This document shows, in pieces, positions 2,329 through 34,028 of a stretch of 55,306 nucleotides of DNA. Source of the DNA: a virus (lineage: Duplodnaviria; Heunggongvirae; Uroviricota; Caudoviricetes); the IMG/VR virus record IMGVR_UViG_650377933_000002, one strand, 5' to 3'. The position numbers were made by a program, and so were the translations under genes. Position 1 is the stretch's first letter, and every line of letters begins with the position of its first letter. The notes under the pieces were generated by a model. It saw nothing but the letters and a program-made list of their open reading frames with translations. It made no database searches and was not told the origin of the DNA.

Positions 2329-2404
2329 TGAGCAAGTCCCATGTCGGCAAGCATAAGCACACAGAATATGAAGCCCGCTGCCAGAAAAATGCATTCAGTG
2401 GTTG

Positions 2405-2596
2405 TCATACCTGGTCTCTCTCATCTGCTTCTGCTTTCGCCACCATCATTTCCAGCTTTTGTGAAAGGGATGTGGCTAACGTATGAAATTCTTCGTCTGT
2501 TTCTACTGGTATTGGCACAAACCTGACTCCAATTTGAGCGAGGCTATGTGCCATCTCGATACTCGTTCTTAACTCAACGGGAGATGCTTTGTGCAT
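2405..2596 (-). CDS. lambda orf63-like protein
   Basis: 63-aa ORF ([23 protein letters not shown]..) matching my recollection of lambda orf63; same position. Confidence 0.6.
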   Translation of the reverse strand: MHKASPVELRTSIEMAHSLAQIGVRFVPIPVETDEEFHTLATSLSQKLEMMVAKAEADERDQV

Positions 2597-2757
2597 ACAG
2601 CCCCCCGTTTATTATTTATCTCCTCAGCCAGCCGCTGGGCTTTCAGTGGATTTTGGATAACAGAAAGGCCGGGAAATACCCAGCCTCGCTTTGTAACGGA
2701 GTAGACGAAAGTGATCGCGCCTACCCGGATATTATCGTGAGGATGCGTCATCGCCAT
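2569..2757 (-). CDS. lambda orf60a-like protein
   Basis: 62-aa ORF ([25 protein letters not shown]..) directly downstream of exo, matching lambda orf60a. Confidence 0.6.
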
Positions 2758-3428
2758 TGCTCCCCAAATACAAAACCAATTTCAGCCAGTGCCTCGTCCA
2801 TTTTTTCGATGAACTCCGGCACCATCTCGTCAAAACTCGCCATGTACTTTTCATCCCGCTCAACCACGACATAATGCAGTCCTTCACGCTTCATACGCGG
2901 GTCATAGTTGGCAAAGTACCAGGCATCTTTTCGCGTCACCCACATGCTGTACTGCACCTGGGCCATGTAAGCCGACTTTATGGCCTCGAAACCACCGAGC
3001 CGGAACTTCATGAAATCCCGGGAGGTAAACGGGCATTTCAGCTCAAGGCCATTGCCGTCACTGCATAAACCATCGGGAGAGCAGGCGGTGCGCATACTTT
3101 CGTCGCGATAGATGATCGGGGATTCAGTAACATTCACGCCGGAAGTGAATTTAAACAGGGTTCTGGCGTCGTTCTCGTACTGTTTTCCCCAGGCCAGCGC
3201 CTTAGCATTAACTTCCGGAGCCACACCGGTGCAAACCTCAGCCAGCAAGGTGTGGAAGTAGGACATTTTCATGTCAGGCCACTTCTTTCCTGAGCGGGGC
3301 TTTGCTATCACGTTGTGAACTTCTGAAGCGGTGATGACGCCGAGCCGTAATTTGTGCCATGCATCATCCCCCTGTTCGACAGCTCTCACGTCGATCCCGG
3401 TACGCTGCAGGATAATGTCCGGTGTCAT
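2748..3428 (-). CDS. exo: lambda exonuclease (Red alpha)
   Basis: 226-aa ORF near-identical over its length to recalled lambda Exo ([50 protein letters not shown]..). Confidence 0.95.
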
Positions 3429-4210
3429 GCTGCCACCTTCTGCTCAGTGGCTTTCTGTTTCAGGAATCCAAGAGCTTTCACTGCTTCGGCTTGTGTCAGT
3501 TCTGACGATGCGCGAATGTCGCGGCGAAATATCTGGGAACAGAGCGGCAATAAGTCGTCATCCCATGTTTTATCCAGGGCGATCAGCAGAGTGTTAATCT
3601 CCTGCATGGTTTCATCGTTAACCGGAGTGATGTCGCGTTCCGGCTGACGTTCCGCAGTGTATGCAGTATTTTCGACAATGCGCTCGGCTTCATCCTTGTC
3701 ATAGATACCAGCAAATCCGAAGGCCAGACGGGCACACTGAATCATGGCTTTATGCCGTAACATCCGTTTGGGATGCGACTGCCACGGCCCCGTGATTTCT
3801 CTGCCTTCGCGAGTTTTGAATGGTTCGCGGCGGCATTCATCCATCCATTCGGTAACGCAGATCGGATGATTGCGGTCTTTGCGGTAAATCCGGCACGTAC
3901 ATGATTCATTGTCCTGCTCAAAGTCCATGCCATCAAACTGCTGGTTTTCATTGATGATGCGGGACCAGCCATCAACGCCCACCACCGGAACGATGCCGTT
4001 CTGCTTATCAGGGAAGGCGTAAATTTCTTTCGTCCACGGATTAAGGCCGTACTGGTTGGCGACGATCAGCAATGCGATGAACTGCGCATCGCTGGCATCA
4101 CCTTTAAATGCCGTCTGACGAAGAGTGGTGATCAGTTCCTGTGGGTCGACAGAATCCATGCCGACACGTTCAGCCAGCTTCCCGGCTAGCGTTGCGAGTG
4201 CTGTACTCAT
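3425..4210 (-). CDS. bet: Red beta single-strand annealing protein
   Basis: 261-aa ORF matching lambda Beta ([66 protein letters not shown]..); overlaps the exo start. Confidence 0.95.
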
Positions 4211-4215
4211 CCGTT

Positions 4216-4512
4216 TTATACCTCTGAATCAATATCAACATGGTGGTGAGCAATGGTTTCAACCATGTACCGGATGTGTTCTGCCATGCGCTCCTGAAAC
4301 TCAACATCGTCATCAAACGCACGGGTAATGGCTTTTTTGTTGGCCCCGCAGCGTTGCAAATGATCGATGCAGAGTGATTCAAACAGGTGCTGTGGAAGAC
4401 CTTTTTCCATGTCGTCTGCCAGTTCTGCCTCTTTCTCTTCACGGGCGATCTGCTGGTAGTGACGCGCCCAGCTTTGAGCCTCAAGACGATCCTGAATGTA
4501 ATAAGCGTTCAT
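4216..4512 (-). CDS. gam: Gam, RecBCD inhibitor (short GamS form)
   Basis: 98-aa ORF matching the C-terminal 98 aa of lambda Gam ([30 protein letters not shown]). Confidence 0.9.
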
Positions 4513-4587
4513 GGCTGAACTCCTGAAAATGGCTGTGAAAATATCGCCTGCGAAATGCCGGGCTGATTAGGTAAACAGGAAAGGGGA

Positions 4588-4998
4588 TTAGTGATTCAGG
4601 CCGTTGCCGCGTCCGTCGAGAAAAACTTCCACGAGCAAATCACGGGTATAAGTGCGCTCGATGCCGCGATGCAGATAAAGCCGTCCGCGTAAATTAGCTG
4701 ATGCAGTCCAGGTACCATCTTTGTGTTTGACCAGCATTCCTGGCATGACCGCACCGCGATTAACGGTCTGCGTTCCGTAATGTTGATGAACCATAAAAAC
4801 TCCTGCCCGTAAGCTGGGCTGCTGAACATATAGAGACTTCTGCGCGTATTCAGGCGGTGGATGGCCACCGGTTGTCATAACTAAGCCGCCTCGTTGAAGC
4901 GACTGAGGTATGAGGTGTTGAGTTGATTTCAGCTGGTCACACCGACGTTCACGCGTCCGCTTCACCCCTCGCACTCCCCGGAGCCTGCTGAAATTCAA
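4588..4998 (-). CDS. hypothetical early-left protein, possibly Kil-like; start uncertain
   Basis: 136-aa ORF in the slot after gam; Arg-rich N-terminus, protein-like C-terminal half (..[46 protein letters not shown]..); an alternative-frame ORF 4596..4868 overlaps it, so the frame is not certain. Confidence 0.3.
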
Positions 4999-4999
4999 G

Positions 5000-5270
5000 C
5001 TGCGGATCTAAGCGGTCATCGCAACGGTGAATCAGGTGATTGCCGTATCGTTGTGTTGTTGCGACATGGTGATAATAGCTATTGCTATTGGCTGTATCAA
5101 TACTTATTGCTATTGATTGATGTGTTTTGATATTAACTGTTTGATAGCAAAAAGAATTAATTTTGTGACTTGTATCGCATAGCGATAACTGAAGGGAGGA
5201 TGTGGTGGTTTTTCGAACGGTTTGTGTGATGAGGGGACAAAAGAAAACCCGGCACGGTGGCCGGGATTCT
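5000..5270. promoter_or_regulatory. AT-rich intergenic region with TTGCTATTG repeats (candidate OL/pL-type operator-promoter)
   Basis: Non-coding AT-rich stretch with the TTGCTATTG motif at least twice (5040..5110); the same motif recurs between the repressor and cro-like gene. Confidence 0.4.
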
Positions 5271-5647
5271 TACGCAGGTAGGTAAAGATATGATTGTGGT
5301 GGCTTAATATTACTACCTAGAGCAGAGATAGGAATTGGTTCTTTATATCTTTCCACTTCACCAATTTTTATTGCGTAGGCCTTTTCTCTACCTGAATAAT
5401 ATGAGTCATAAAATTGCTTAGAAATACCTGCGTGTTTTTCCGTCTTTTTCCAAAGAGATTCCGGTTCGTCACTTAGTATTGATTCAATACGGAATTGACC
5501 AACAACTTTACCTAATGGCATCGTGGCATAAATAACAACGGTGCTAATTTGCGGATTTTTGAATATACCTTTACGAAACTCGAACCGCTTTGTTCCGTTC
5601 AATATTTTTTCTGCAAACTCAGGCTTAATGGATAATAAAACTTTCAT
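5270..5647 (-). CDS. ASCH-domain protein
   Basis: 125-aa ORF with the ASCH signature GxKxxExR near the N-terminus (NGTKRFEFRKG); ATG start overlaps the 3' end of the upstream gene by 23 nt (operon). Confidence 0.7.
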   Translation of the reverse strand: MKVLLSIKPEFAEKILNGTKRFEFRKGIFKNPQISTVVIYATMPLGKVVGQFRIESILSDEPESLWKKTEKHAGISKQFYDSYYSGREKAYAIKIGEVERYKEPIPISALGSNIKPPQSYLYLPA

Positions 5648-6698
5648 TTATCTTGCCTAACTCGATGATCTTTAAGAACTGCTCATTTGTGAGTTTAAAG
5701 TGACTCCATCGGAATGCACGCGAACCATTTAGCCCCACATGATCTATTAAAATAGCACGATTGGGTCTCTTTGACAAAGACAGATTGTATGTGAATCTTA
5801 TAATGAAAGGGTATCGACGTTCTTTATAGATTTTTCTGAGTTCATCTTCAGAAAATACGCTAAAACGAATACAATAGTCTACAAAACTATCTTCGCTTAA
5901 AAATTCAGAAATATTTTTTACGCTCTCAACTACACATAATGTACTGGCTACAGAACGATAGCGAGCTGGCCCTTTTTTGTCTCCGGTTCTATAGATGACA
6001 ATGATATCTCCTCTTTTCATTCCCATCACAGAACGCATTCCACATATGTAAATTTTATGAATGCTGTTAGCATGGGATATATCTTTGACAATATCTGGTG
6101 ATTCATTTACAAGTTTTGAATCAGGGAATAGTCTAGTGTGATATTCGGGATAAATCGCCAGTAAATATTTGTTGGCCCTTGATGTCATTATTCGAGGGTA
6201 ATCTAATAAAATATCACCATAAGGCTCATGCAAAGACCTCGCATATACAAACTCTTTCCCGTTATGTGTTTCTTTTTCACCATGAATGTAAAATCCGTAC
6301 GTTTGGAAAAGTTTTATTAGATGGACGTGTTTGTCGAAAACAGTAACATAAATATCATCAGATTTTGATGAAAATGCATGGTCAAACGCTTTTTTTAGAA
6401 ATCGTTGTCCGCGAAGGGTGCCTTTAGATTCAAATTTGAATGTTCCTATCTTTAGATGACGTCCTGGTGGGAGCGCTGGATTAATGTCATTTGCATCATC
6501 ATTTTCTTTTAGATACATAAAACCTTCGATTTTATGCTTGTCATCATAGAGCACATAAGCTGATTCTCCTTCTCTGGCTTTTTTTTCTAACCAAAGAGGA
6601 AACTCTTTATAATCTTTTTTTAAAGAGTCAAAAAATGGGTCATTGTGATCAAAATCAGAGAATTTCTCATATTTTAAAGTATCCATTAAGTTCTCCAT
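5625..6698 (-). CDS. hypothetical two-domain protein (N-terminal GNAT-like, C-terminal PUA/ASCH-like beta-barrel?)
   Basis: 357-aa ORF, AT-rich; probable true start at the second ATG (6686, MDTLKYEKF..) preceded by GGAGA; N-terminal region has a GNAT-like pattern (..KGTLRGQRFLKKAFDHAF....IYVTVFDKHVHLIKLFQTYGF); domain calls are from motif resemblance only. Confidence 0.55.
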   Translation of the reverse strand: MENLMDTLKYEKFSDFDHNDPFFDSLKKDYKEFPLWLEKKAREGESAYVLYDDKHKIEGFMYLKENDDANDINPALPPGRHLKIGTFKFESKGTLRGQRFLKKAFDHAFSSKSDDIYVTVFDKHVHLIKLFQTYGFYIHGEKETHNGKEFVYARSLHEPYGDILLDYPRIMTSRANKYLLAIYPEYHTRLFPDSKLVNESPDIVKDISHANSIHKIYICGMRSVMGMKRGDIIVIYRTGDKKGPARYRSVASTLCVVESVKNISEFLSEDSFVDYCIRFSVFSEDELRKIYKERRYPFIIRFTYNLSLSKRPNRAILIDHVGLNGSRAFRWSHFKLTNEQFLKIIELGKINESFIIH

Positions 6699-6766
6699 TC
6701 TAAAATGAATAATTAAGTTGTTTTACTGAATGAGCACAATGCCCGGTTGATAATTTTTAATTGGTA

Positions 6767-7459
6767 CTATCCATGCTTCCTATACGTCTGCGGCATGCTC
6801 CCAATAACTTTCCCGAAGATAAATACCCGGTTCATCTCATCTTTCTCGATCGGGTCCCACGGTGAGTAGCTTTTGTTATCAGAGATAACCAGCAGCTTAT
6901 CCTTCATCATTTGCAGGCGCTTTACATGGGCTGTGTCGTCGTACAGAAACGCATAGATACCATCACCGTCGAAAGATTTAACCGTGATATCAACGAATAG
7001 AAGATCACCAGGTTCAATCGTTCCTGACATGCTGTCACCGCGTACGTTAATGATGCGGATATTTTCTGCCTTCCTACCATCGAACATGTGACGAGCATCG
7101 TCAAACGAGTACTCAACCGAGCGTAGAACTTCTACAAACTCACGGTTGATGACTCCCGGCCCGGCACTCACTTCTATATCAAGAACGTCAATCTTGAAGT
7201 ATTTGGGATGGTTGGCAGTAGGCTTCCCTAATTGTTGACCGTCATTTCTCATCGGGCCTATGCCTGATGAGAGCCACTCTGTTCGAACACCCAATGCATT
7301 AGCTATTTCAACAATTTTTGTTGAGCCGCGCGCGTTGCCGCTTGTCAGTCTCCAGATTGTGGGTTGAGCTACGCCAGACGCCTTTGCAAGAGCGCCTTGA
7401 GACATTCCAGATTGTTCCATCGCTAGGTTTAAGCGATCAGCAAGAGTTTCTTTTTTCAT
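6767..7459 (-). CDS. CI-like repressor (HTH + LexA/S24 peptidase-like domain)
   Basis: ORF 6767..7495; ATG at 7459 (MKKETLADRLNLAMEQSGMSQGALAKASGVAQPTIWRL..) gives 230 aa with an N-terminal XRE-type HTH and a C-terminal S24-like region (..GDSMSGTIEPGDLLFVD..); the 7495 start would be TTG and would cover an operator-like palindrome; no SD, consistent with a leaderless repressor mRNA. Confidence 0.8.
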   Translation of the reverse strand: MKKETLADRLNLAMEQSGMSQGALAKASGVAQPTIWRLTSGNARGSTKIVEIANALGVRTEWLSSGIGPMRNDGQQLGKPTANHPKYFKIDVLDIEVSAGPGVINREFVEVLRSVEYSFDDARHMFDGRKAENIRIINVRGDSMSGTIEPGDLLFVDITVKSFDGDGIYAFLYDDTAHVKRLQMMKDKLLVISDNKSYSPWDPIEKDEMNRVFIFGKVIGSMPQTYRKHG

Positions 7460-7569
7460 AAGTTTTAATTTATACGCTTGCGTATTGATGGTCAAAACAC
7501 GTTTTGCTATTGTTATGATTAATACGCATTGCTATTATTTATTCATTGTAATACCAATAGGAATTAATA
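7460..7569. promoter_or_regulatory. OR-type operator-promoter region between divergent repressor and cro-like genes
   Basis: 110-bp AT-rich divergent intergenic region with palindrome TACGCTTGCGTA and TTGCTATTG/TTGCTATTA repeats. Confidence 0.55.
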
Positions 7570-7797
7570 ATGACAAATCAAACCATTCAACTCGCAATCA
7601 GTATTACAGGTAGTCAAAAACGACTGGCAGATCTATGCGGTGTAGCCCAGCCCACTGTTTGGCGTTGGCTACACGGTGGCGGAATTGATGCCCGCTATGT
7701 AATGAAAATTGTCTCAGCCACTGGTGGAAAGATTAAACCAGCAGATATTCGTCCCGACCTCGCACCATTGTTTAACGCGAGTAATTCTGCCGCCTAA
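7570..7797 (+). CDS. Cro/YdaS-like HTH regulator
   Basis: 75-aa ORF divergent from the repressor, with HTH (..QKRLADLCGVAQPTVWRWLHGG..); AGGA-type RBS upstream. Confidence 0.75.
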   Translation: MTNQTIQLAISITGSQKRLADLCGVAQPTVWRWLHGGGIDARYVMKIVSATGGKIKPADIRPDLAPLFNASNSAA

Positions 7798-7821
7798 TCT
7801 GCGGCGTTAACTGATAAGGCA

Positions 7822-8367
7822 ATGACTATGCAACCACTTACATACCAACAGACTAGCGGATTTAGCCCGACTGCGGTGATAAATCGTTCTCAAACAAAAC
7901 AGGCGCCAGGCCACGAAAAAATCCGTGATGCCGTTCGCGCCTGGTCGGCTGCAGATAATCAGGATGTTGTTGCCGCACTCATTGTGAATGAGTATCGGGA
8001 GCAGGGCGGCGGCACCATCGATTTTCCTGATGATGTCAGCCGTGCACGCCAGAAGCTGTTCCGCTTCCTCGATAACAAATTCGATTCTGAAAAATACCGA
8101 AATAACGTGCGTGAACTGACCCCGGCAATTCTGGCGGTACTACCGCTGGAATATCGCGGCCACCTGGTTGAGCAGGATAGCTTCATGGCTCGGCTGGCTG
8201 AAATGGAAAAGGAACTCAGTGAGGCAAAACAGGCTGTCATTCTCAACGCACCACGCCACCAGAAACTGAAGGAGATGAGTGAAGGCATTGTGTCGATGTT
8301 TCGTGTGGACCCGGATCTGGCTGGTCCACTGATGGCGATGGTCACCACCATGCTGGGGGCAATATGA
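7822..8367 (+). CDS. CII-position regulatory protein (YdaT-like?)
   Basis: 181-aa ORF between cro-like and O genes; family assignment from recollection only. Confidence 0.45.
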   Translation: MTMQPLTYQQTSGFSPTAVINRSQTKQAPGHEKIRDAVRAWSAADNQDVVAALIVNEYREQGGGTIDFPDDVSRARQKLFRFLDNKFDSEKYRNNVRELTPAILAVLPLEYRGHLVEQDSFMARLAEMEKELSEAKQAVILNAPRHQKLKEMSEGIVSMFRVDPDLAGPLMAMVTTMLGAI

Positions 8368-8453
8368 CAGGTTCGGAAATGGCGAAAGCCGGTCTGCGCG
8401 AACAGAACCGACTTTCAGGTGCAAATCGTAACACACTCATTGCGGGAGGAATT

Positions 8454-9383
8454 ATGGCAAACACTGCTGAGATATTCAATTTTCCAGTGCCGGATGTGGC
8501 ACAAAAGGAGCCGCGCGTGGCAGATCTCGATGATGGTTATACGCGCATTGCAAATGAGTTGCTGGAAGCTGTGATGCTGGCCGGATTAACACAGCACCAG
8601 CTTCTGGTCTTCCTGGCTGTCATGCGCAAAACATATGGCTTTAATAAAAAACTGGATTGGGTGAGCAACGAGCAACTTTCCGAGTTGACCGGGATATTGC
8701 CGCACAAGTGTTCTGCTGCAAAAAGTGTTCTGGTAAAGCGTGGGATTTTTATTCAGAGCGGGCGGAATATCGGCATTAATAATGTGGTCAGTGAATGGTC
8801 AACATTACCCGAATCAGGTAAGAAAAATAAAGTTTACCTGAAAGAGGTAAATTTACCTGAATCAGGTAAGAAAAGTTTACCCAAATCAGGTAAAGGCGTT
8901 TACCCGAATCAGGTAAACACAAAAGACAAACTAACAAAAGACAATATAAAACCTTTTTCGTCCGAGAATTCTGACGAATCCTCTGACCAGCCAGAAAACG
9001 ATCTTCCTGTGGTGAAACCGGATGCTGCAATTCAGAGCGGCAGCAAGTGGGGGACAGCAGAAGACCTGACCGCCGCAGAGTGGATGTTTGACATGGTGAA
9101 GACCATCGCGCCATCAGCCAGAAAACCAAATTTTGCAGGGTGGGCTAACGATATCCGCCTGATGCGTGAACGTGACGGACGTAACCACCGCGACATGTGC
9201 GTGCTGTTCCGCTGGGCATGCCAGGACAACTTCTGGTCCGGTAACGTGCTGAGTCCGGCCAAACTCCGCGACAAGTGGACTCAACTCGAAATCAACCGTA
9301 ACAAGCAACAGGCTGGCGTGACAGCCGGAAAATCAAAACTCGACCTGACAAACACTGACTGGATTTACGGGGTGGATTTATGA
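8454..9383 (+). CDS. O: replication initiator O-like protein
   Basis: ORF 8364..9383; alignment with lambda O N-terminus (MTNTAKILNF.. versus MANTAEIFNF..ADLDDGYTRIANELLEA..) puts the start at ATG 8454 with GGGAGGA RBS; contains the iteron array; overlaps the P start. Confidence 0.8.
   Translation: MANTAEIFNFPVPDVAQKEPRVADLDDGYTRIANELLEAVMLAGLTQHQLLVFLAVMRKTYGFNKKLDWVSNEQLSELTGILPHKCSAAKSVLVKRGIFIQSGRNIGINNVVSEWSTLPESGKKNKVYLKEVNLPESGKKSLPKSGKGVYPNQVNTKDKLTKDNIKPFSSENSDESSDQPENDLPVVKPDAAIQSGSKWGTAEDLTAAEWMFDMVKTIAPSARKPNFAGWANDIRLMRERDGRNHRDMCVLFRWACQDNFWSGNVLSPAKLRDKWTQLEINRNKQQAGVTAGKSKLDLTNTDWIYGVDL
8805..8955. repeat. phage replication origin: four to five iterons (TTTACCCGAATCAGGTAA) plus AT-rich segment, inside O
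   Basis: Repeats of TTTACC(C/T)GAATCAGGTAA at about 8805, 8834, 8852, 8876 and 8899, followed by an A-rich tract, as in lambda ori. Confidence 0.8.
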
Positions 9384-10380: not shown

Positions 10381-10447
10381 TGAAACAGGTGAGTTGAGTT
10401 CAAACTGTAGTACAATTCTCTCCAGTTTGAACAGGAAAGAATATGCT

Positions 10448-10780
10448 ATGAACCCTTATATTTATCTTGGTGGTGCAATACTTGCAGAGGTCATTGGTAC
10501 AACCTTAATGAAGTTTTCAGAAGGTTTTACACGGTTATGGCCATCTGTTGGTACAATTATTTGTTATTGTGCATCATTCTGGTTATTAGCTCAGACGCTG
10601 GCTTATATACCTACAGGGATTGCTTATGCTATCTGGTCAGGAGTCGGTATTGTCCTGATTAGCTTACTATCATGGGGATTTTTCGGCCAACGGTTGGACC
10701 TGCCAGCCATTATAGGCATGATGTTGATTTGTGCCGGTGTGTTGGTTATTAATTTATTGTCACGAAGCACACCACATTAA
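10448..10780 (+). CDS. emrE: SMR-family multidrug efflux transporter EmrE
   Basis: ORF 10394..10780; from ATG 10448 the 110-aa product matches EmrE (MNPYIYLGGAILAEVIGTTLMKFSEGFTRLWPSVGTIICYCASFWLLAQTLAYIPTGIAYAIWSGVGIVLISLLSWGFFGQRLDLPAIIGMMLICAGVL.INLLSRSTPH). Confidence 0.95.
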   Translation: MNPYIYLGGAILAEVIGTTLMKFSEGFTRLWPSVGTIICYCASFWLLAQTLAYIPTGIAYAIWSGVGIVLISLLSWGFFGQRLDLPAIIGMMLICAGVLVINLLSRSTPH

Positions 10781-13955: not shown

Positions 13956-14402
13956 GTTTTACATGCCTTGACTTATCGGATGAAATTCTCTTACTGAATT
14001 TAACGGCAGTTTAATAGCCGTACAACTCGTGGTAGCCAGAGAAATATCCCAGTCGTGGTTAAGGTTGTACTTGACGGCTATTATTTCAACAATGCTTAAA
14101 GTGAGAGCTTAAGGTTATGCGTATGTTTTACAGTCCGAGTAGATTCTGACCAATAGCTTCTTTGTATAATTCTGTCAGAAATAAATCTTGGCTTGCATGA
14201 AGTTTGAGACCTTATCTTGTTTGATTATGAATAATCAATTCGCCATAATTGTATCACCGGAGCCTGAACAACTCCGGTGACTTCTGCGCTAAACGGGGAC
14301 GTTTATGCGCACACACAATCCAAACTCTCTTCTCCCTTCACAGATGCAGAAATGCACCTGCGTTTTTTTGCATCCAGCGTCTGACCTCTGTGGAGGTGAA
14401 GC

Positions 14403-31923: not shown

Positions 31924-32211
31924 ATGAAAAATAAATTTTCTGGCTTTATTGCCAGCGGTCAAACTCATTCAAAAATCAGCCTTGGGGATATTTTCAAAGA
32001 TAGCTATGGCTATCGAGTAAAGATTATTTCGGTTGATGATCGCCGTGTCTCTTATTTGCGTGATGGTTATGATTTTGAATGTGTTATGCCGCGTCAGCAG
32101 TTCGAAAGAGATTTCATTCTGGTAAAAAATTGCAAGACAGATAATCAGAGGCGTTCCGCAGGCTATATCCGCAAAATTCGGGCAATGTTAGTTGCCGGAG
32201 GTAACAAATGA
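31924..32211 (+). CDS. hypothetical protein
   Basis: 95-aa ORF; stop overlaps the primase start. Confidence 0.4.
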   Translation: MKNKFSGFIASGQTHSKISLGDIFKDSYGYRVKIISVDDRRVSYLRDGYDFECVMPRQQFERDFILVKNCKTDNQRRSAGYIRKIRAMLVAGGNK

Positions 32212-34028
32212 AACGTGCTCCGAACTTAAAATACCAACCGCGCGACAAAATGACAGAAGTCATCATTTTTGCTGGCAGTGATGCCTGGAGCCATGCAAAA
32301 GAATGGAATGAATGGGCGGGTAAGCATATTGCAGCAGATGATACACCACCAGTCATTCTGGGTACGGAACAACTGGAAAACCTGGATGATATGCAAATTA
32401 TCGATGAAGGCCGTCATTATGTGCGTGTTTATCGTGCCGGAAAGATCGCAGAGAAAAATCTGACGAAGGTTGCGACATTACTTGCTATTGCAGGCGTAAA
32501 GGAAGCACGTTGTTACCGTAGCTTTGTTGATCGAGAGCCTGAAGACTGGACTCCGCGCCTTGTCGGCCTAAAAGCTGAAGCGGAGCATGGGGAAAGTCTG
32601 GTGATTGAACTGCCAGTGAAGAAGGCAGAGCGCAAAAATGACGAGCGTGCTTCATCTTTGGCGTTGAATCAGATGGGGGCCAGCCAGCGCGGTGAAGTTC
32701 TCCTGGCACATTACGGCGGCGAACTGGCAATCAATGCCGACTCTGACACCGTTCATCATTACAACGGCGTTGTATGGGAGCCGGTTCAGGATAAAGAGTT
32801 ACAGCGTGCTATGGCGCAGATTTTCATTGATGCGGAGATCAGCTATTCGCAGAACGCCATTAAATCGGCGGTAGATACCATGAAGTTAAGTTTGCCTGTA
32901 ATGGGGAATACAGCCCGTAACCTGATTGGATTCAGTAACGGGGTATTTGATACCAGAACTGGTAATTTTCGGGAGCATAACAAAAACGACTGGTTGTTAA
33001 TTGCCAGTGAATTACCTTTCAGCCCACCAGCAGAGGGGGAAACGCTGGCAACACATGCGCCGAATTTCTGGAAGTGGTTGCGCCGTTCGGTGGCTGAGAA
33101 TGACCGCAAGGCAGATCGCGTACTGGCGGCATTATTCATGGTGCTGGCGAACCGGTACGACTGGCAGTTATTCATTGAGGTAACAGGGCCGGGGGGAAGT
33201 GGTAAAAGTGTGATGGCGGAGATTTGCACCATGCTGGCGGGTAAGGCTAATACAGTATCAGCAAGCATGAAGGCGCTGGAAGATGCAAGGGAACGTGCGT
33301 TAGTGGTTGGCTTTTCGCTGATTATCATGCCGGATATGACCCGCTACGCTGGTGATGGGGCAGGGATTAAGGCCATTACAGGCGGTGACAAGGTGGCAAT
33401 TGACCCGAAACACAAAGCCCCCTATTCAACGCGTATTCCGGCAGTAGTGCTGGCGGTTAACAATAACGCCATGTCATTCAGTGACCGCAGCGGGGGGATC
33501 TCACGTCGTCGGGTGATATTCAATTTTTCGGAAGTTGTACCGGAGAACGAACGCGATTCGATGCTGGCGGAAAAAATAGAAGGTGAGCTGGCGGTAGTGA
33601 TTCGCCATCTGCTTACACGGTTTGCTGATCAGGACGAAGCCAGACGCCTGTTATATGAGCAGCAGAAATCTGAAGAAGCACTGGCGATAAAGCGAGAGGG
33701 GGATTCGCTGGTGGACTTCTGCGGCTATCTCATGGCATCGGTAATGTGTGATGGCCTGTTAGTGGGTAATGCTGAAATTGTGCCATTCAGCCCACGCAGG
33801 TATCTCTATCATGCCTATCTGGCTTATATGAGGGCACATGGGTTTGGTAAACCTGTAACACTGACGCGCTTCGGTAAAGATATGCCGGGGGCAATGGCGG
33901 AATATGGCAGGGAGTATATGAAACGGAAAACGAAGCACGGTTTGCGTTCAAACGTGACACTGACGGAGGAATCAGAAGACTGGATGCCATCATGTGTATC
34001 GGTCACTAATGACGATAGCAAAAATTAA
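32208..34028 (+). CDS. primase/helicase (P4-alpha-like, SF3-type P-loop NTPase)
   Basis: 606-aa ORF with GGAGG RBS; Walker A VTGPGGSGKS and downstream Walker B-like acidic stretch (LIIMPDMT); followed by an iteron array. Confidence 0.8.
   Translation: MKRAPNLKYQPRDKMTEVIIFAGSDAWSHAKEWNEWAGKHIAADDTPPVILGTEQLENLDDMQIIDEGRHYVRVYRAGKIAEKNLTKVATLLAIAGVKEARCYRSFVDREPEDWTPRLVGLKAEAEHGESLVIELPVKKAERKNDERASSLALNQMGASQRGEVLLAHYGGELAINADSDTVHHYNGVVWEPVQDKELQRAMAQIFIDAEISYSQNAIKSAVDTMKLSLPVMGNTARNLIGFSNGVFDTRTGNFREHNKNDWLLIASELPFSPPAEGETLATHAPNFWKWLRRSVAENDRKADRVLAALFMVLANRYDWQLFIEVTGPGGSGKSVMAEICTMLAGKANTVSASMKALEDARERALVVGFSLIIMPDMTRYAGDGAGIKAITGGDKVAIDPKHKAPYSTRIPAVVLAVNNNAMSFSDRSGGISRRRVIFNFSEVVPENERDSMLAEKIEGELAVVIRHLLTRFADQDEARRLLYEQQKSEEALAIKREGDSLVDFCGYLMASVMCDGLLVGNAEIVPFSPRRYLYHAYLAYMRAHGFGKPVTLTRFGKDMPGAMAEYGREYMKRKTKHGLRSNVTLTEESEDWMPSCVSVTNDDSKN

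What the first reader, a model, noticed from the sequence alone, without database searches (positions are those of the whole stretch)
5000..5270. TTGCTATTG repeats flank the immunity cassette on both sides
Seen in sequence: the TTGCTATTG motif occurs twice in the AT-rich region at 5040..5110 and again, with a variant TTGCTATTA, in the cI/cro intergenic region (7500..7540), alongside the palindrome TACGCTTGCGTA. Inference: OL- and OR-type operators for the CI-like repressor that bracket the repressor plus the GNAT/ASCH cassette, so the cassette would be in a lysogen-expressed operon.
Basis: partly seen in the sequence, partly recalled or inferred. Interest (0 to 1): 0.4.

Follow-up and report, generated by a model that had tools for sequence, protein, structure and literature searches.

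The report
Repressor operators flanking a prophage immunity region
The repeated TTGCTATT motif is real and marks the left and right operator sites of a lambda-like prophage repressor, which bracket the repressor gene and a swappable toxin-antitoxin/defence cassette sitting where lambda carries rexAB: a well-known design with a repressor specificity that has apparently not been described.

Summary
TTGCTATTG occurs exactly at 5082, 5107 and 7504, and as TTGCTATTA at 7529. One further exact copy lies at 32482, which is the chance level (4 found, 0.81 expected).

The motif is the better-conserved half of a 16-bp pseudo-dyad, AATA[C/G][G/C]-N4-[G/C][C/G]TATT. Sites lie at 5074-5089 and 5099-5114 (OL) and at 7471-7486, 7496-7511 and 7521-7536 (OR), each 25 bp from the next. 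A matrix built only from Salmonella and Klebsiella phages ranks these five sites first among all positions of the window.

The sites overlap predicted PL, PR and PRM promoters with lambda-like geometry.

The decisive evidence is comparative. In 20 related phages and prophages, the 91-bp OL segment (5065-5155) switches together with the cI DNA-binding domain, OR and cro (7212-7826). This holds whatever cargo lies between them. PhiR47_2 carries the same GevT/GevA cassette but another cI type, and it has the other motif at both OL and OR.

Cargo always sits between the cI stop codon and a shared terminator (5248-5265), and in the annotated relatives on the cI strand, so co-transcription with cI is likely though not shown.

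This is a new member of a known kind. The closest precedents are lambda cI-rexAB and CP-933P paaR2-paaA2-parE2.

The parts
5074..5089 (.). OL1-like operator AATAGCTATTGCTATT (contains TTGCTATTG 5082-5090). It overlaps the PL -10 and is centred about -16.5 from the predicted PL start.
   Evidence: Matrix score 21.0, third best in the window. The position is conserved in all 14 type-A loci.
5099..5114 (.). OL2-like operator AATACTTATTGCTATT (contains TTGCTATTG 5107-5115). It overlaps the PL -35 and is centred about -41.5.
   Evidence: Matrix score 20.9. It lies 25 bp from OL1 in every type-A locus.
5119..5134 (.). Candidate weak third left site GATGTGTTTTGATATT, 20 bp from OL2.
   Evidence: Score is only 8.2 here, but the same offset holds a strong site in L012 (17.8) and L017 (15.1). 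Low confidence.
5143..5158 (.). Candidate fourth left element GATAGCAAAAAGAATT (a GATAGC half-site plus GAATT).
   Evidence: Score 10.3, not significant alone. However, GATAGCnAAAnGAATT sits at the same offset in 13 type-A loci from several genera. It resembles 7550-7565 (D6). Type-B phages have a type-B half-site (GGTTGT) at the equivalent place.
5072..5100 (-). Predicted PL promoter: -35 TTGATA (5100..5095), 17-nt spacer, -10 TATTAT (5077..5072). The start at about 5065 reads leftward into kil, gam, bet and exo.
   Evidence: Promoter scan, 10 of 12 matches. Hexamers are retained in distant type-A loci. The predicted start coincides with the type A/B homology boundary at 5064/5065.
5065..5155 (.). 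Immunity-specific left segment (91 bp) holding PL and OL.
   Evidence: Together with 7212-7826 it is the only stretch of 4000-9000 that has no homology to type-B phages. It has the same length in both types.
5160..5247 (.). Spacer conserved in both immunity types, containing the palindrome TATCGCATAGCGATA (5173-5187). It is not repressor-type-specific and its function is unknown.
5239..5265 (-). Intrinsic terminator CCCGGCCACCGTGCCGGG plus a T-tract. It ends the leftward cI-cargo transcription unit, like lambda tIMM by position.
   Evidence: Terminator scan. Fold -17.5 kcal/mol, z -3.59. It is conserved downstream of every cargo variant and of cargo-less phages.
5270..5647 (-). ASCH-domain gene, annotated GevA antitoxin in PhiR47_2. 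PADLOC family PDC-M11B.
   Evidence: Pfam ASCH 2.5e-8. PDC-M11B 6.8e-52. Annotation.
5625..6698 (-). 357-aa gene, annotated GevT toxin in PhiR47_2. PADLOC family PDC-M11A. The N-terminal part is acetyltransferase-like.
   Evidence: PDC-M11A 1.9e-133. phrog_13728 acetyltransferase on residues 8-151, 4e-24. No Pfam hit. GC is 34-37% against about 50% in the backbone.
6767..7459 (-). cI-like repressor, 230 aa: an HTH domain plus an S24 autopeptidase domain with an AG site in EVSAGPG, GDSM and KRL.
   Evidence: Pfam Peptidase_S24 1.3e-18 and HTH_3 1.8e-6. The N-domain is nearest to the 434 repressor DNA-binding domain.
7467..7495 (-). Predicted PRM: -35 TTGACC (7495..7490), -10 TAAATT (7472..7467). 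The start at about 7460/7459 falls on the A of the cI ATG, giving a leaderless mRNA.
   Evidence: Promoter scan, 9 of 12 matches. No Shine-Dalgarno sequence precedes the ATG. Same design as lambda cI and paaR2 (PMC8630535).
7471..7486 (.). OR3-like operator TATACGCTTGCGTATT (contains the palindrome TACGCTTGCGTA). It lies between the -35 and -10 of PRM.
   Evidence: Score 19.6. Invariant in 13 type-A loci.
7496..7511 (.). OR2-like operator AACACGTTTTGCTATT (contains TTGCTATTG 7504-7512). It abuts the PRM -35 and overlaps the PR -35. Its centre is about -43.5 from the PRM start.
   Evidence: Score 21.8. Nearly invariant in 13 loci.
7521..7536 (.). OR1-like operator AATACGCATTGCTATT (contains TTGCTATTA 7529-7537). 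It overlaps the PR -10 and is centred about -16.5.
   Evidence: Score 23.6, best in the window. Conserved while the flanking spacers vary.
7510..7538 (+). Predicted PR: -35 TTGTTA, 17-nt spacer with TG, -10 TATTAT. The start at about 7545 reads into cro.
   Evidence: Promoter scan, 9 of 12 matches.
7550..7565 (.). Candidate fourth right site: AATACCAATAGGAATT on the + strand, AATTCCTATTGGTATT on the - strand. It lies downstream of the PR start and overlaps the cro Shine-Dalgarno sequence.
   Evidence: Score 16.3, equal to the best random score. AATACnnnTAGGAATT is kept in 12 of 13 type-A loci although the preceding spacer varies.
7570..7797 (+). Cro-like (YdaS-family) gene.
   Evidence: Pfam YdaS_toxin 9.6e-15. 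It co-varies with cI type: 80-100% identity in type A, about 47% in type B.
7212..7826 (.). Immunity-specific right segment: cI codons 1 to about 83, OR and cro.
   Evidence: No homology to type-B phages here, while flanking DNA is 92-99% identical.

Best explanation
The window carries a lambda-like (Bievrevirus, 99.9% identical to phage 4A7 / Lambda_4C10) immunity region.

The TTGCTATT repeats are the stronger half-sites of 16-bp pseudo-dyad operators. These can be written AATA[C/G][G/C]-N4-[G/C][C/G]TATT, or as a 434-like 14-bp ATA[C/G]-N6-[C/G]TAT. They are most likely recognised by dimers of the phage's CI-like repressor and probably also by its YdaS-type Cro.

On the right, three sites 25 bp apart overlap the divergent PR and PRM promoters. 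CI at the two cro-proximal sites would block PR and, from about -43.5, activate leaderless cI transcription. The cI-proximal palindrome would shut PRM when occupied by excess CI or by Cro.

On the left, 2.4 kb away, two strong sites 25 bp apart cover the -10 and -35 of a leftward PL promoter that drives kil, gam, bet and exo. One or two weaker sites follow.

Between the cI stop codon and a shared intrinsic terminator lies a cargo slot in the rexAB position. Here it holds a GevT/GevA (PADLOC PDC-M11) toxin-antitoxin-like pair. This pair is most likely read through from the cI promoters and is therefore expressed in the lysogen.

Shown here: the sequence anatomy, the statistics, the covariation and the conservation. 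Inferred: binding, site order and affinities, promoter activity, co-transcription, and OL-OR looping.
For: Motif statistics.

A direct 49-nt repeat with equal 25-nt spacing.

Predicted PL, PR and PRM overlap the sites, with the two promoter-proximal sites at -16.5 and -41.5 for both PL and PR (plus coordinates).

Gene content: CI with HTH and S24 domains, YdaS-like Cro, YdaT-like CII, O, P, kil, gam.

Covariation: against type-B phages the only non-homologous DNA in 4000-9000 is 5065-5155 and 7212-7826. All 14 loci with the type-A recognition helix have matrix clusters both next to cI and 1.1-2.9 kb downstream of it. These are the window, L002, L003, L007-L009, L011, L012, L014-L017, L019 and L020, from Escherichia, Salmonella, Klebsiella, Kluyvera, Citrobacter and Raoultella. 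All 6 type-B loci lack that motif and instead carry ACAACC-NN-GGTTGT at both places.

PhiR47_2 has the same GevTA cassette but type-B cI and type-B OL.

Operators are invariant while inter-operator spacers vary.

The cargo slot has sharp limits at the cI stop codon and the terminator stem. The annotated relatives alone show eight alternative cargo sets, all on the cI strand, and the unannotated prophages add more with the main ORFs on the cI strand.

The cI-gevT spacer has no predicted terminator and no significant structure. A strong terminator follows gevA.

Experimental precedent exists for the same design. In CP-933P, paaR2-paaA2-parE2 has OR repeats and an OL/PL, both repressed by the CI analogue and by YdaS, and the repressor mRNA is leaderless (PMC8630535). 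Its TA genes are described as replacing rexA and rexB (PMC9986795).
Against: There are no binding, footprint or transcript data for this repressor.

Promoter calls are consensus matches; the region as a whole has no more promoter-like hits than shuffles (8 found, 8.0 expected).

The half-sites are only loosely symmetric: AATACG against AATAGC, 5-6 of 8 dyad pairs. The exact operator boundaries are therefore uncertain.

Many of the related loci share ancestry, so the 14-versus-6 association is not 20 independent events.

The third and fourth sites are weak by score.

The cassette could have its own promoter. Perceval's cI-cargo spacer contains a hairpin that might terminate read-through. TA modules are often autoregulated.
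Confidence: 0.85

Rival explanations
1. The repeats are operators of the toxin-antitoxin cassette itself: autoregulation by the ASCH/GevA antitoxin or the GevTA complex, not by the phage repressor.
For: Type II TA operons are commonly autoregulated through repeats near their promoter (general knowledge). The repeats flank the cassette.
Against: The motif persists at both places in phages whose slot holds unrelated cargo or a SIR2 gene. It is absent from both places in PhiR47_2, which has the same cassette at 99% identity but another cI type. The left cluster lies beyond the cassette's terminator, downstream of it rather than upstream.
Confidence: 0.02
2. The similarity between 5066-5114 and 7488-7536 is only shared promoter or AT-rich architecture, or a relic of an old duplication. 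No sequence-specific repressor recognises it.
For: Both stretches are AT-rich promoter regions. The 9-mer with one mismatch is hardly enriched in the window. The repeat is direct although the two promoters diverge.
Against: The 16-mers are conserved across genera while adjacent spacers change. The O157:H7 prophage has a left region too diverged for megablast, yet it keeps two high-scoring sites exactly 25 bp apart. The segment switches with the cI recognition helix, and the type-B segment carries type-B repeats at the same positions.
Confidence: 0.04
3. The sites are recognised mainly or only by the YdaS-type Cro, and CI uses a different, unrecognised sequence.
For: cro co-varies with the sites exactly as the cI N-domain does, so the comparison cannot separate the two proteins. 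In CP-933P, YdaS footprints the same region as the CI analogue (PMC8630535).
Against: In every studied lambdoid switch, CI and Cro share operators (lambda, 434, P22: established knowledge; CP-933P: PMC8630535). No other repeat family common to both regions was found. The site positions fit repression of PL and PR and activation of PRM by CI.
Confidence: 0.06

Closest known systems
Bacteriophage lambda immunity region (OL/PL - rexB - rexA - cI - PRM/OR/PR - cro)
   Same: The gene order and strands match. A tripartite OR overlaps divergent PR and PRM. OL overlaps PL about 2.4 kb away. The cI mRNA from PRM is predicted to be leaderless. CI has an S24 autocleavage domain. Accessory genes sit between cI and a terminator just before OL, in the rexAB position. 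Adjacent operators are about 24-25 bp apart, and the OL2-OL3 step is 20 bp.
   Different: The operator sequence is unrelated (lambda uses a 17-bp TATCACCGCCAGTGGTA-like site). Cro and CII are of the YdaS/YdaT type. No N gene lies next to PL. The cargo is a GevTA/PDC-M11 pair instead of rexAB. There may be a fourth site on each side.
CP-933P immunity region of E. coli O157:H7 (paaR2-paaA2-parE2 / ydaS-ydaT; PMC8630535, PMC9986795)
   Same: It is a lambdoid immunity region with YdaS as Cro and YdaT as CII. A toxin-antitoxin pair is co-transcribed with the repressor in the rexAB position. The repressor mRNA is leaderless. There are four evenly spaced repeats at OR and an OL/PL beyond the TA genes, both repressed by the repressor and by YdaS; this was shown experimentally.
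   Different: PaaR2 is a short repressor without an S24 domain, so it is not SOS-cleavable. Its repeat consensus is different (GTTTAGTAA). The TA family is different (ParE/PaaA2).
Phage 434 repressor and its 14-bp operators (ACAA-N6-TTGT)
   Same: It is the nearest solved relative of the cI N-terminal domain (E 1.5e-5 to 1e-4). The operators here fit the same layout: 4 conserved outer bases, 6 variable central bases and 4 conserved outer bases (ATA[C/G]-N6-[C/G]TAT).
   Different: The outer bases differ, so the specificity differs. The similarity is remote, and a contact model was not tested.

Membership tests
Lambdoid CI/Cro immunity region with OL and OR | CI-type repressor with an N-terminal HTH and a C-terminal S24 (LexA-like) autocleavage domain | tested here: met
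   Pfam Peptidase_S24 1.3e-18, HTH_3 1.8e-6, Phage_CI_repr 0.0053. AG, GDSM and KRL motifs are readable in the translation.
Lambdoid CI/Cro immunity region with OL and OR | A divergently transcribed cro-like gene followed by cII-like and replication genes; recombination and kil genes on the other side | tested here: met
   YdaS-like Cro, YdaT-like CII, O, Gam. Kil and CII PHROGs. Synteny with annotated phages.
Lambdoid CI/Cro immunity region with OL and OR | The same recognition sequence is repeated at two separate loci that overlap a rightward/cI-ward promoter pair and a leftward promoter | tested here: met
   The top five matrix hits of the window fall only at 5074-5114 and 7471-7536. They overlap predicted PL, PR and PRM.
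Lambdoid CI/Cro immunity region with OL and OR | Operator sequence co-varies with repressor specificity (heteroimmune relatives differ at OL, OR and the cI DNA-binding domain together) | tested here: met
   14 type-A and 6 type-B loci show complete association. Non-homology is limited to 5065-5155 and 7212-7826.
Lambdoid CI/Cro immunity region with OL and OR | Repressor and Cro physically bind the sites and repress PL and PR; CI activates PRM | not testable with these tools
   Needs EMSA or footprinting and reporter assays.
rexAB-position lysogen-expressed cargo (moron co-transcribed with cI) | Cargo lies on the cI strand between the cI stop and a terminator that precedes OL, with no intervening terminator | tested here: met
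   The annotated cargo variants share the same slot and orientation.
rexAB-position lysogen-expressed cargo (moron co-transcribed with cI) | A transcript continuous from PRM through the cargo in a lysogen | not testable with these tools
   Needs lysogen RNA-seq or 5' RACE.
PADLOC candidate defence system PDC-M11 (annotated GevT/GevA) | Both component proteins match the PDC-M11A and PDC-M11B profiles and are adjacent | tested here: met
   1.9e-133 and 6.8e-52; the genes overlap by 23 nt. The toxin/antitoxin roles come only from the GenBank annotation of PV340567. No paper was found.

The most novel reading that the evidence does not exclude
Both control regions may have four sites rather than three. 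The outermost element on each side (5143-5158 and 7550-7565) would be a distinct class, [A/G]ATA..-N4-.GAATT. It is conserved across genera and, on the right, sits on the cro ribosome-binding site. If it is bound by CI or Cro, it would add a post-initiation or roadblock layer, or extra anchors for OL-OR looping. Because cargo expression would be tied to PRM, CI cleavage at induction would shut off a toxin-antitoxin or defence cassette. That would make the slot a state-coupled addiction or abortive-infection module.
Probability: 0.25. Interest if true: 0.45.

Novelty: new member of a known kind. Interest (0 to 1): 0.25.

Why it matters
The result gives a concrete, testable operator definition for a repressor type that is common. 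Its cI-N/OR segment is present in 718 of 5,426 complete E. coli genomes, including O157:H7 prophages, and in Salmonella, Klebsiella, Kluyvera, Citrobacter and Raoultella prophages.

It also marks a sharply bounded cargo slot between the cI stop codon and the terminator. Across relatives this slot carries GevTA/PDC-M11, HipA-like kinase + DUF3037, SIR2, a lipoprotein and several unknowns. If that slot is transcribed with cI, these defence or TA genes are lysogen-expressed by design. This helps predict prophage-encoded defence and heteroimmunity from sequence.

Conceptually it adds nothing beyond the lambda and CP-933P paradigm.

Tried and rejected
1. Literature. GevT/GevA, PDC-M11, Bievrevirus and the operator sequences themselves (TACGCTTGCGTA, GTTTTGCTATTG and others) gave no paper describing this repressor, its operators or the cassette in the held library. 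Two candidate papers, on svsR sRNA and on Chi-rich lambdoids, were not relevant.

2. Rfam over 4300-8500 gave only sub-threshold chance hits.

3. A put-like or otherwise structured RNA in the 270-nt PL leader: the fold z-score is -1.14, so nothing special.

4. Further copies of the conserved palindrome TATCGCnnnGCGATA as a second regulator's sites: it is unique in the window.

5. The published YdaT site TTGATT-N6-AATCAA near cro/cII or OL: none there. The only exact copy is at 14221-14238.

7. My first site coordinates were off by one base and were corrected from the matrix scan.

8. A Pfam domain for the 357-aa protein: none, even at E=10.

Full report
**What is in the sequence.**
The 9-mer TTGCTATTG occurs exactly at 5082-5090, 5107-5115 and 7504-7512, plus once at 32482-32490. 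That is 4 matches against 0.81 expected, and none of 100 dinucleotide shuffles reached 4. TTGCTATTA is at 7529-7537 and the palindrome TACGCTTGCGTA is at 7473-7484. The lone copy at 32482 is what chance predicts for the rest of the window. With one mismatch allowed the word is hardly enriched window-wide (27 against 18.2). The signal is therefore the two clusters. Each has two copies 25 nt apart, and together they form a 49-nt direct repeat of 71% identity (5066-5114 against 7488-7536, D1).

**What the region is.**
The window is 99.9% identical over 4600-8400 to Escherichia phages 4A7 and Lambda_4C10 (genus Bievrevirus). Six genes lie on the minus strand:
- exo and bet (named from the annotation of the related phages)
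- gam at 4216-4512
- kil at 4588-4794
- an ASCH gene at 5270-5647
- a 357-aa gene at 5625-6698
- a CI-like repressor at 6767-7459, with HTH and Peptidase_S24 domains

On the plus strand lie a YdaS-type Cro (7570-7797), a YdaT-type CII (7822-8367), and O and P. This is the lambda gene order, with the two extra genes where lambda has rexA and rexB.

**The operator model.**
Read in a wider frame, the 9-mer is the right half of a 16-bp pseudo-dyad, AATA[C/G][G/C]-N4-[G/C][C/G]TATT. I built a weight matrix only from sites in two distant phages that share the cI recognition helix: Salmonella P22-like SPLA1b (L011) and Klebsiella phage 6 LV-2017 (L012). Scanning all 110,000 positions of the window gave these top five:

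| Site | Score |
|---|---|
| 7521-7536 | 23.6 |
| 7496-7511 | 21.8 |
| 5074-5089 | 21.0 |
| 5099-5114 | 20.9 |
| 7471-7486 | 19.6 |

The best score in 30 random sequences averaged 14.4 and never exceeded 16.5. The consensus promoter scan places three promoters on these sites:
- a leftward promoter at 5100..5072 (TTGATA-17-TATTAT)
- a rightward promoter at 7510-7538 (TTGTTA-17-TATTAT)
- a cI-ward promoter at 7495..7467 (TTGACC-17-TAAATT)

The two promoter-proximal sites are centred about -16.5 and -41.5 from the predicted start for both PL and PR. The middle right site is centred about -43.5 from the predicted PRM start, which is the position from which lambda CI activates PRM (established knowledge). 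The perfect palindrome sits between the PRM hexamers, like OR3. The PRM -10 ends 7 nt before the cI ATG and no Shine-Dalgarno sequence precedes it. A leaderless cI mRNA is therefore predicted, as in lambda and as shown for paaR2 in CP-933P (PMC8630535).

The promoters are consensus matches only. The region as a whole has no excess of such matches.

**The decisive evidence: a natural swap experiment.**
Related phages fall into two cI types. They differ in the N-terminal DNA-binding domain and share the C-terminal domain. Against four type-B phages, the only parts of 4000-9000 without homology are 5065-5155 and 7212-7826. The first is 91 bp and has the same length in both types. The second covers cI codons 1 to about 83, OR and cro. 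Everything else is 92-99% identical. The left patch starts exactly at the predicted PL start.

Type-B phages carry a different repeat, ACAACC-NN-GGTTGT. They have two copies 24 bp apart in the left patch and four in the cI/cro intergenic region. The window has none at either place.

The cargo between cI and the left patch varies independently:
- GevT/GevA in the window and 4A7, and also in type-B PhiR47_2
- HipA/HipD
- several sets of hypothetical proteins
- a lipoprotein
- SIR2 in an O157:H7 prophage
- nothing at all in PhiR34_1 and Turner

PhiR47_2 settles the rival reading that the repeats belong to the cassette. It has the same cassette (99% identity) but type-B cI and type-B repeats on both sides.

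**Wider sampling.**
A scan of one genome per species found five more prophages with the type-A recognition helix, in Kluyvera (three), Citrobacter and Raoultella, plus one type-B-like prophage in Klebsiella grimontii. Each type-A locus has matrix hits of 13 or more in exactly two places within 10-12 kb. One is three sites 25 bp apart next to cI. The other is two or three sites 1.1-2.2 kb downstream of cI. The type-B-like locus has none there and has type-B repeats at both places instead. The O157:H7 prophage has a left region too diverged for megablast, yet it keeps two strong sites exactly 25 bp apart. In all, 14 type-A loci and 6 type-B loci show complete association. These are not 20 independent events.

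Alignments show the 16-mers nearly invariant while the spacers between them change freely.

**Extra sites.**
At the left, a site 20 bp beyond OL2 (5119-5134) is weak here (8.2) but strong in two relatives. A further element at 5143-5158 (GATAGCAAAAAGAATT) is weak by score (10.3) but conserved at the same offset in 13 loci. At the right, 7550-7565 (AATACCAATAGGAATT; score 16.3 on the opposite strand) overlaps the cro Shine-Dalgarno sequence. It is kept in 12 of 13 loci although the spacer before it varies. The two outer elements resemble each other (D6). CP-933P likewise has four evenly spaced repeats at OR (PMC8630535). I regard these as candidates only.

**The cassette and the operon claim.**
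Homology among relatives breaks at the cI stop codon and resumes at the stem of a hairpin, CCCGGCCACCGTGCCGGG, followed by a T-tract (5265..5239, minus strand). This is a strong terminator (-17.5 kcal/mol, z -3.59). All annotated cargo variants lie on the cI strand, and the longest ORFs in the slot of the unannotated prophages are also on the cI strand. The 68-nt cI-gevT spacer has no predicted terminator, promoter or significant structure. The cargo is 34-37% GC against about 50% for the backbone. Co-transcription with cI is therefore the simplest reading and matches lambda rexAB and CP-933P paaA2-parE2. It remains an inference, and an internal promoter cannot be excluded.

The two proteins match PADLOC candidate system PDC-M11A/B (1.9e-133 and 6.8e-52). 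The small one has an ASCH domain. The large one has no Pfam hit, but residues 8-151 hit a PHROG annotated as acetyltransferase.

**Comparison with known systems.**
The layout works like the lambda switch. It meets every sequence-level criterion I could test for a lambdoid immunity region; see the membership table. The closest experimentally studied relative in design is CP-933P, which has YdaS as Cro, YdaT as CII, and a TA pair in the rexAB position flanked by OR and OL/PL (PMC8630535, PMC9986795). The nearest solved relative of the DNA-binding domain is the 434 repressor. The operators fit a 434-like 4-6-4 layout, ATA[C/G]-N6-[C/G]TAT. The operator sequence itself was not found in the searchable literature.

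**Verdict.**
The OL/OR interpretation is strongly supported by comparative evidence, and the lysogen-operon inference is likely. It is an ordinary, well-understood kind of element with an apparently undescribed specificity, so it is a new member of a known kind of modest interest.

Noticed in passing
L004 (PhiR34_1) about 1440-1600 and L010 (Turner) about 3640-3800; window 5238-5345 joined to 6722 onward: The two cargo-less type-B phages keep about 75-100 nt of the gevA 3' end fused directly to the spacer that follows cI. This looks like a deletion scar of the GevTA cassette.
   Followed up: partly
window 5160-5247, palindrome 5173-5187: An 85-nt stretch between the terminator and OL is conserved in both immunity types and contains the perfect palindrome TATCGCATAGCGATA. 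The palindrome is unique in the window and absent from the non-Bievrevirus type-A loci. It is not repressor-type-specific. Its function is unknown; it could be a site for a host factor or another phage factor.
   Followed up: partly
window 4795-5065 (minus strand): No N-like antiterminator gene lies between PL and kil. The 270-nt leader is conserved in both immunity types and shows no unusual folding (z -1.14). The ORF 4588-4998 has an in-frame arginine-rich stretch ([12 protein letters not shown]) upstream of kil, and some GenBank records include it in 'Kil'.
   Followed up: partly
window 14221-14238: TTGATTATGAATAATCAA is an exact match to the published YdaT (CII-equivalent) recognition repeat TTGATT-N6-AATCAA (PMC9986795). 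It lies in a gap between ORFs, far from cro/cII.
   Followed up: no
L011 5473-5676, L012 5119-5322, L014 8567-8776, L015 8305-8529, L016 7498-7731, L017 6621-6815, L019 7987-8244: Other type-A prophages carry a small 64-85 aa ORF next to OL, on the strand opposite to cI. Several of them share similar sequences (for example MGLGMDMSRDELLEDRAAF...). The one copy tested (L015) has no Pfam hit. It is absent from the window, and it suggests OL may be a divergent promoter region in those elements.
   Followed up: partly
L020 (E. coli O157:H7 G5295) 2342-3943; L014 6951-8524; L019 7016-7933: The cargo slot holds different genes in relatives: a SIR2-family gene, a HipA_2 kinase with DUF3037, and DUF6414. 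The type-A cI-N/OR segment is present in 718 of 5,426 complete E. coli genomes.
   Followed up: partly
L002 (phage 4A7), the OL1 equivalent: 4A7 differs from the window by a C-to-T change inside OL1 (TTGTTATT instead of TTGCTATT). This lowers the matrix score from 21.0 to 16.3.
   Followed up: no
window 31999-32014 and 32482-32490: A perfect palindrome GATAGCTATGGCTATC (score 12.8) and the fourth exact TTGCTATTG lie about 480 bp apart, far from the immunity region. Both are within chance expectation.
   Followed up: no
window 10394-10780: An ORF downstream of the replication genes reads like an EmrE/SMR small multidrug transporter (translation). This was recognised from memory and not tested.
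   Followed up: no
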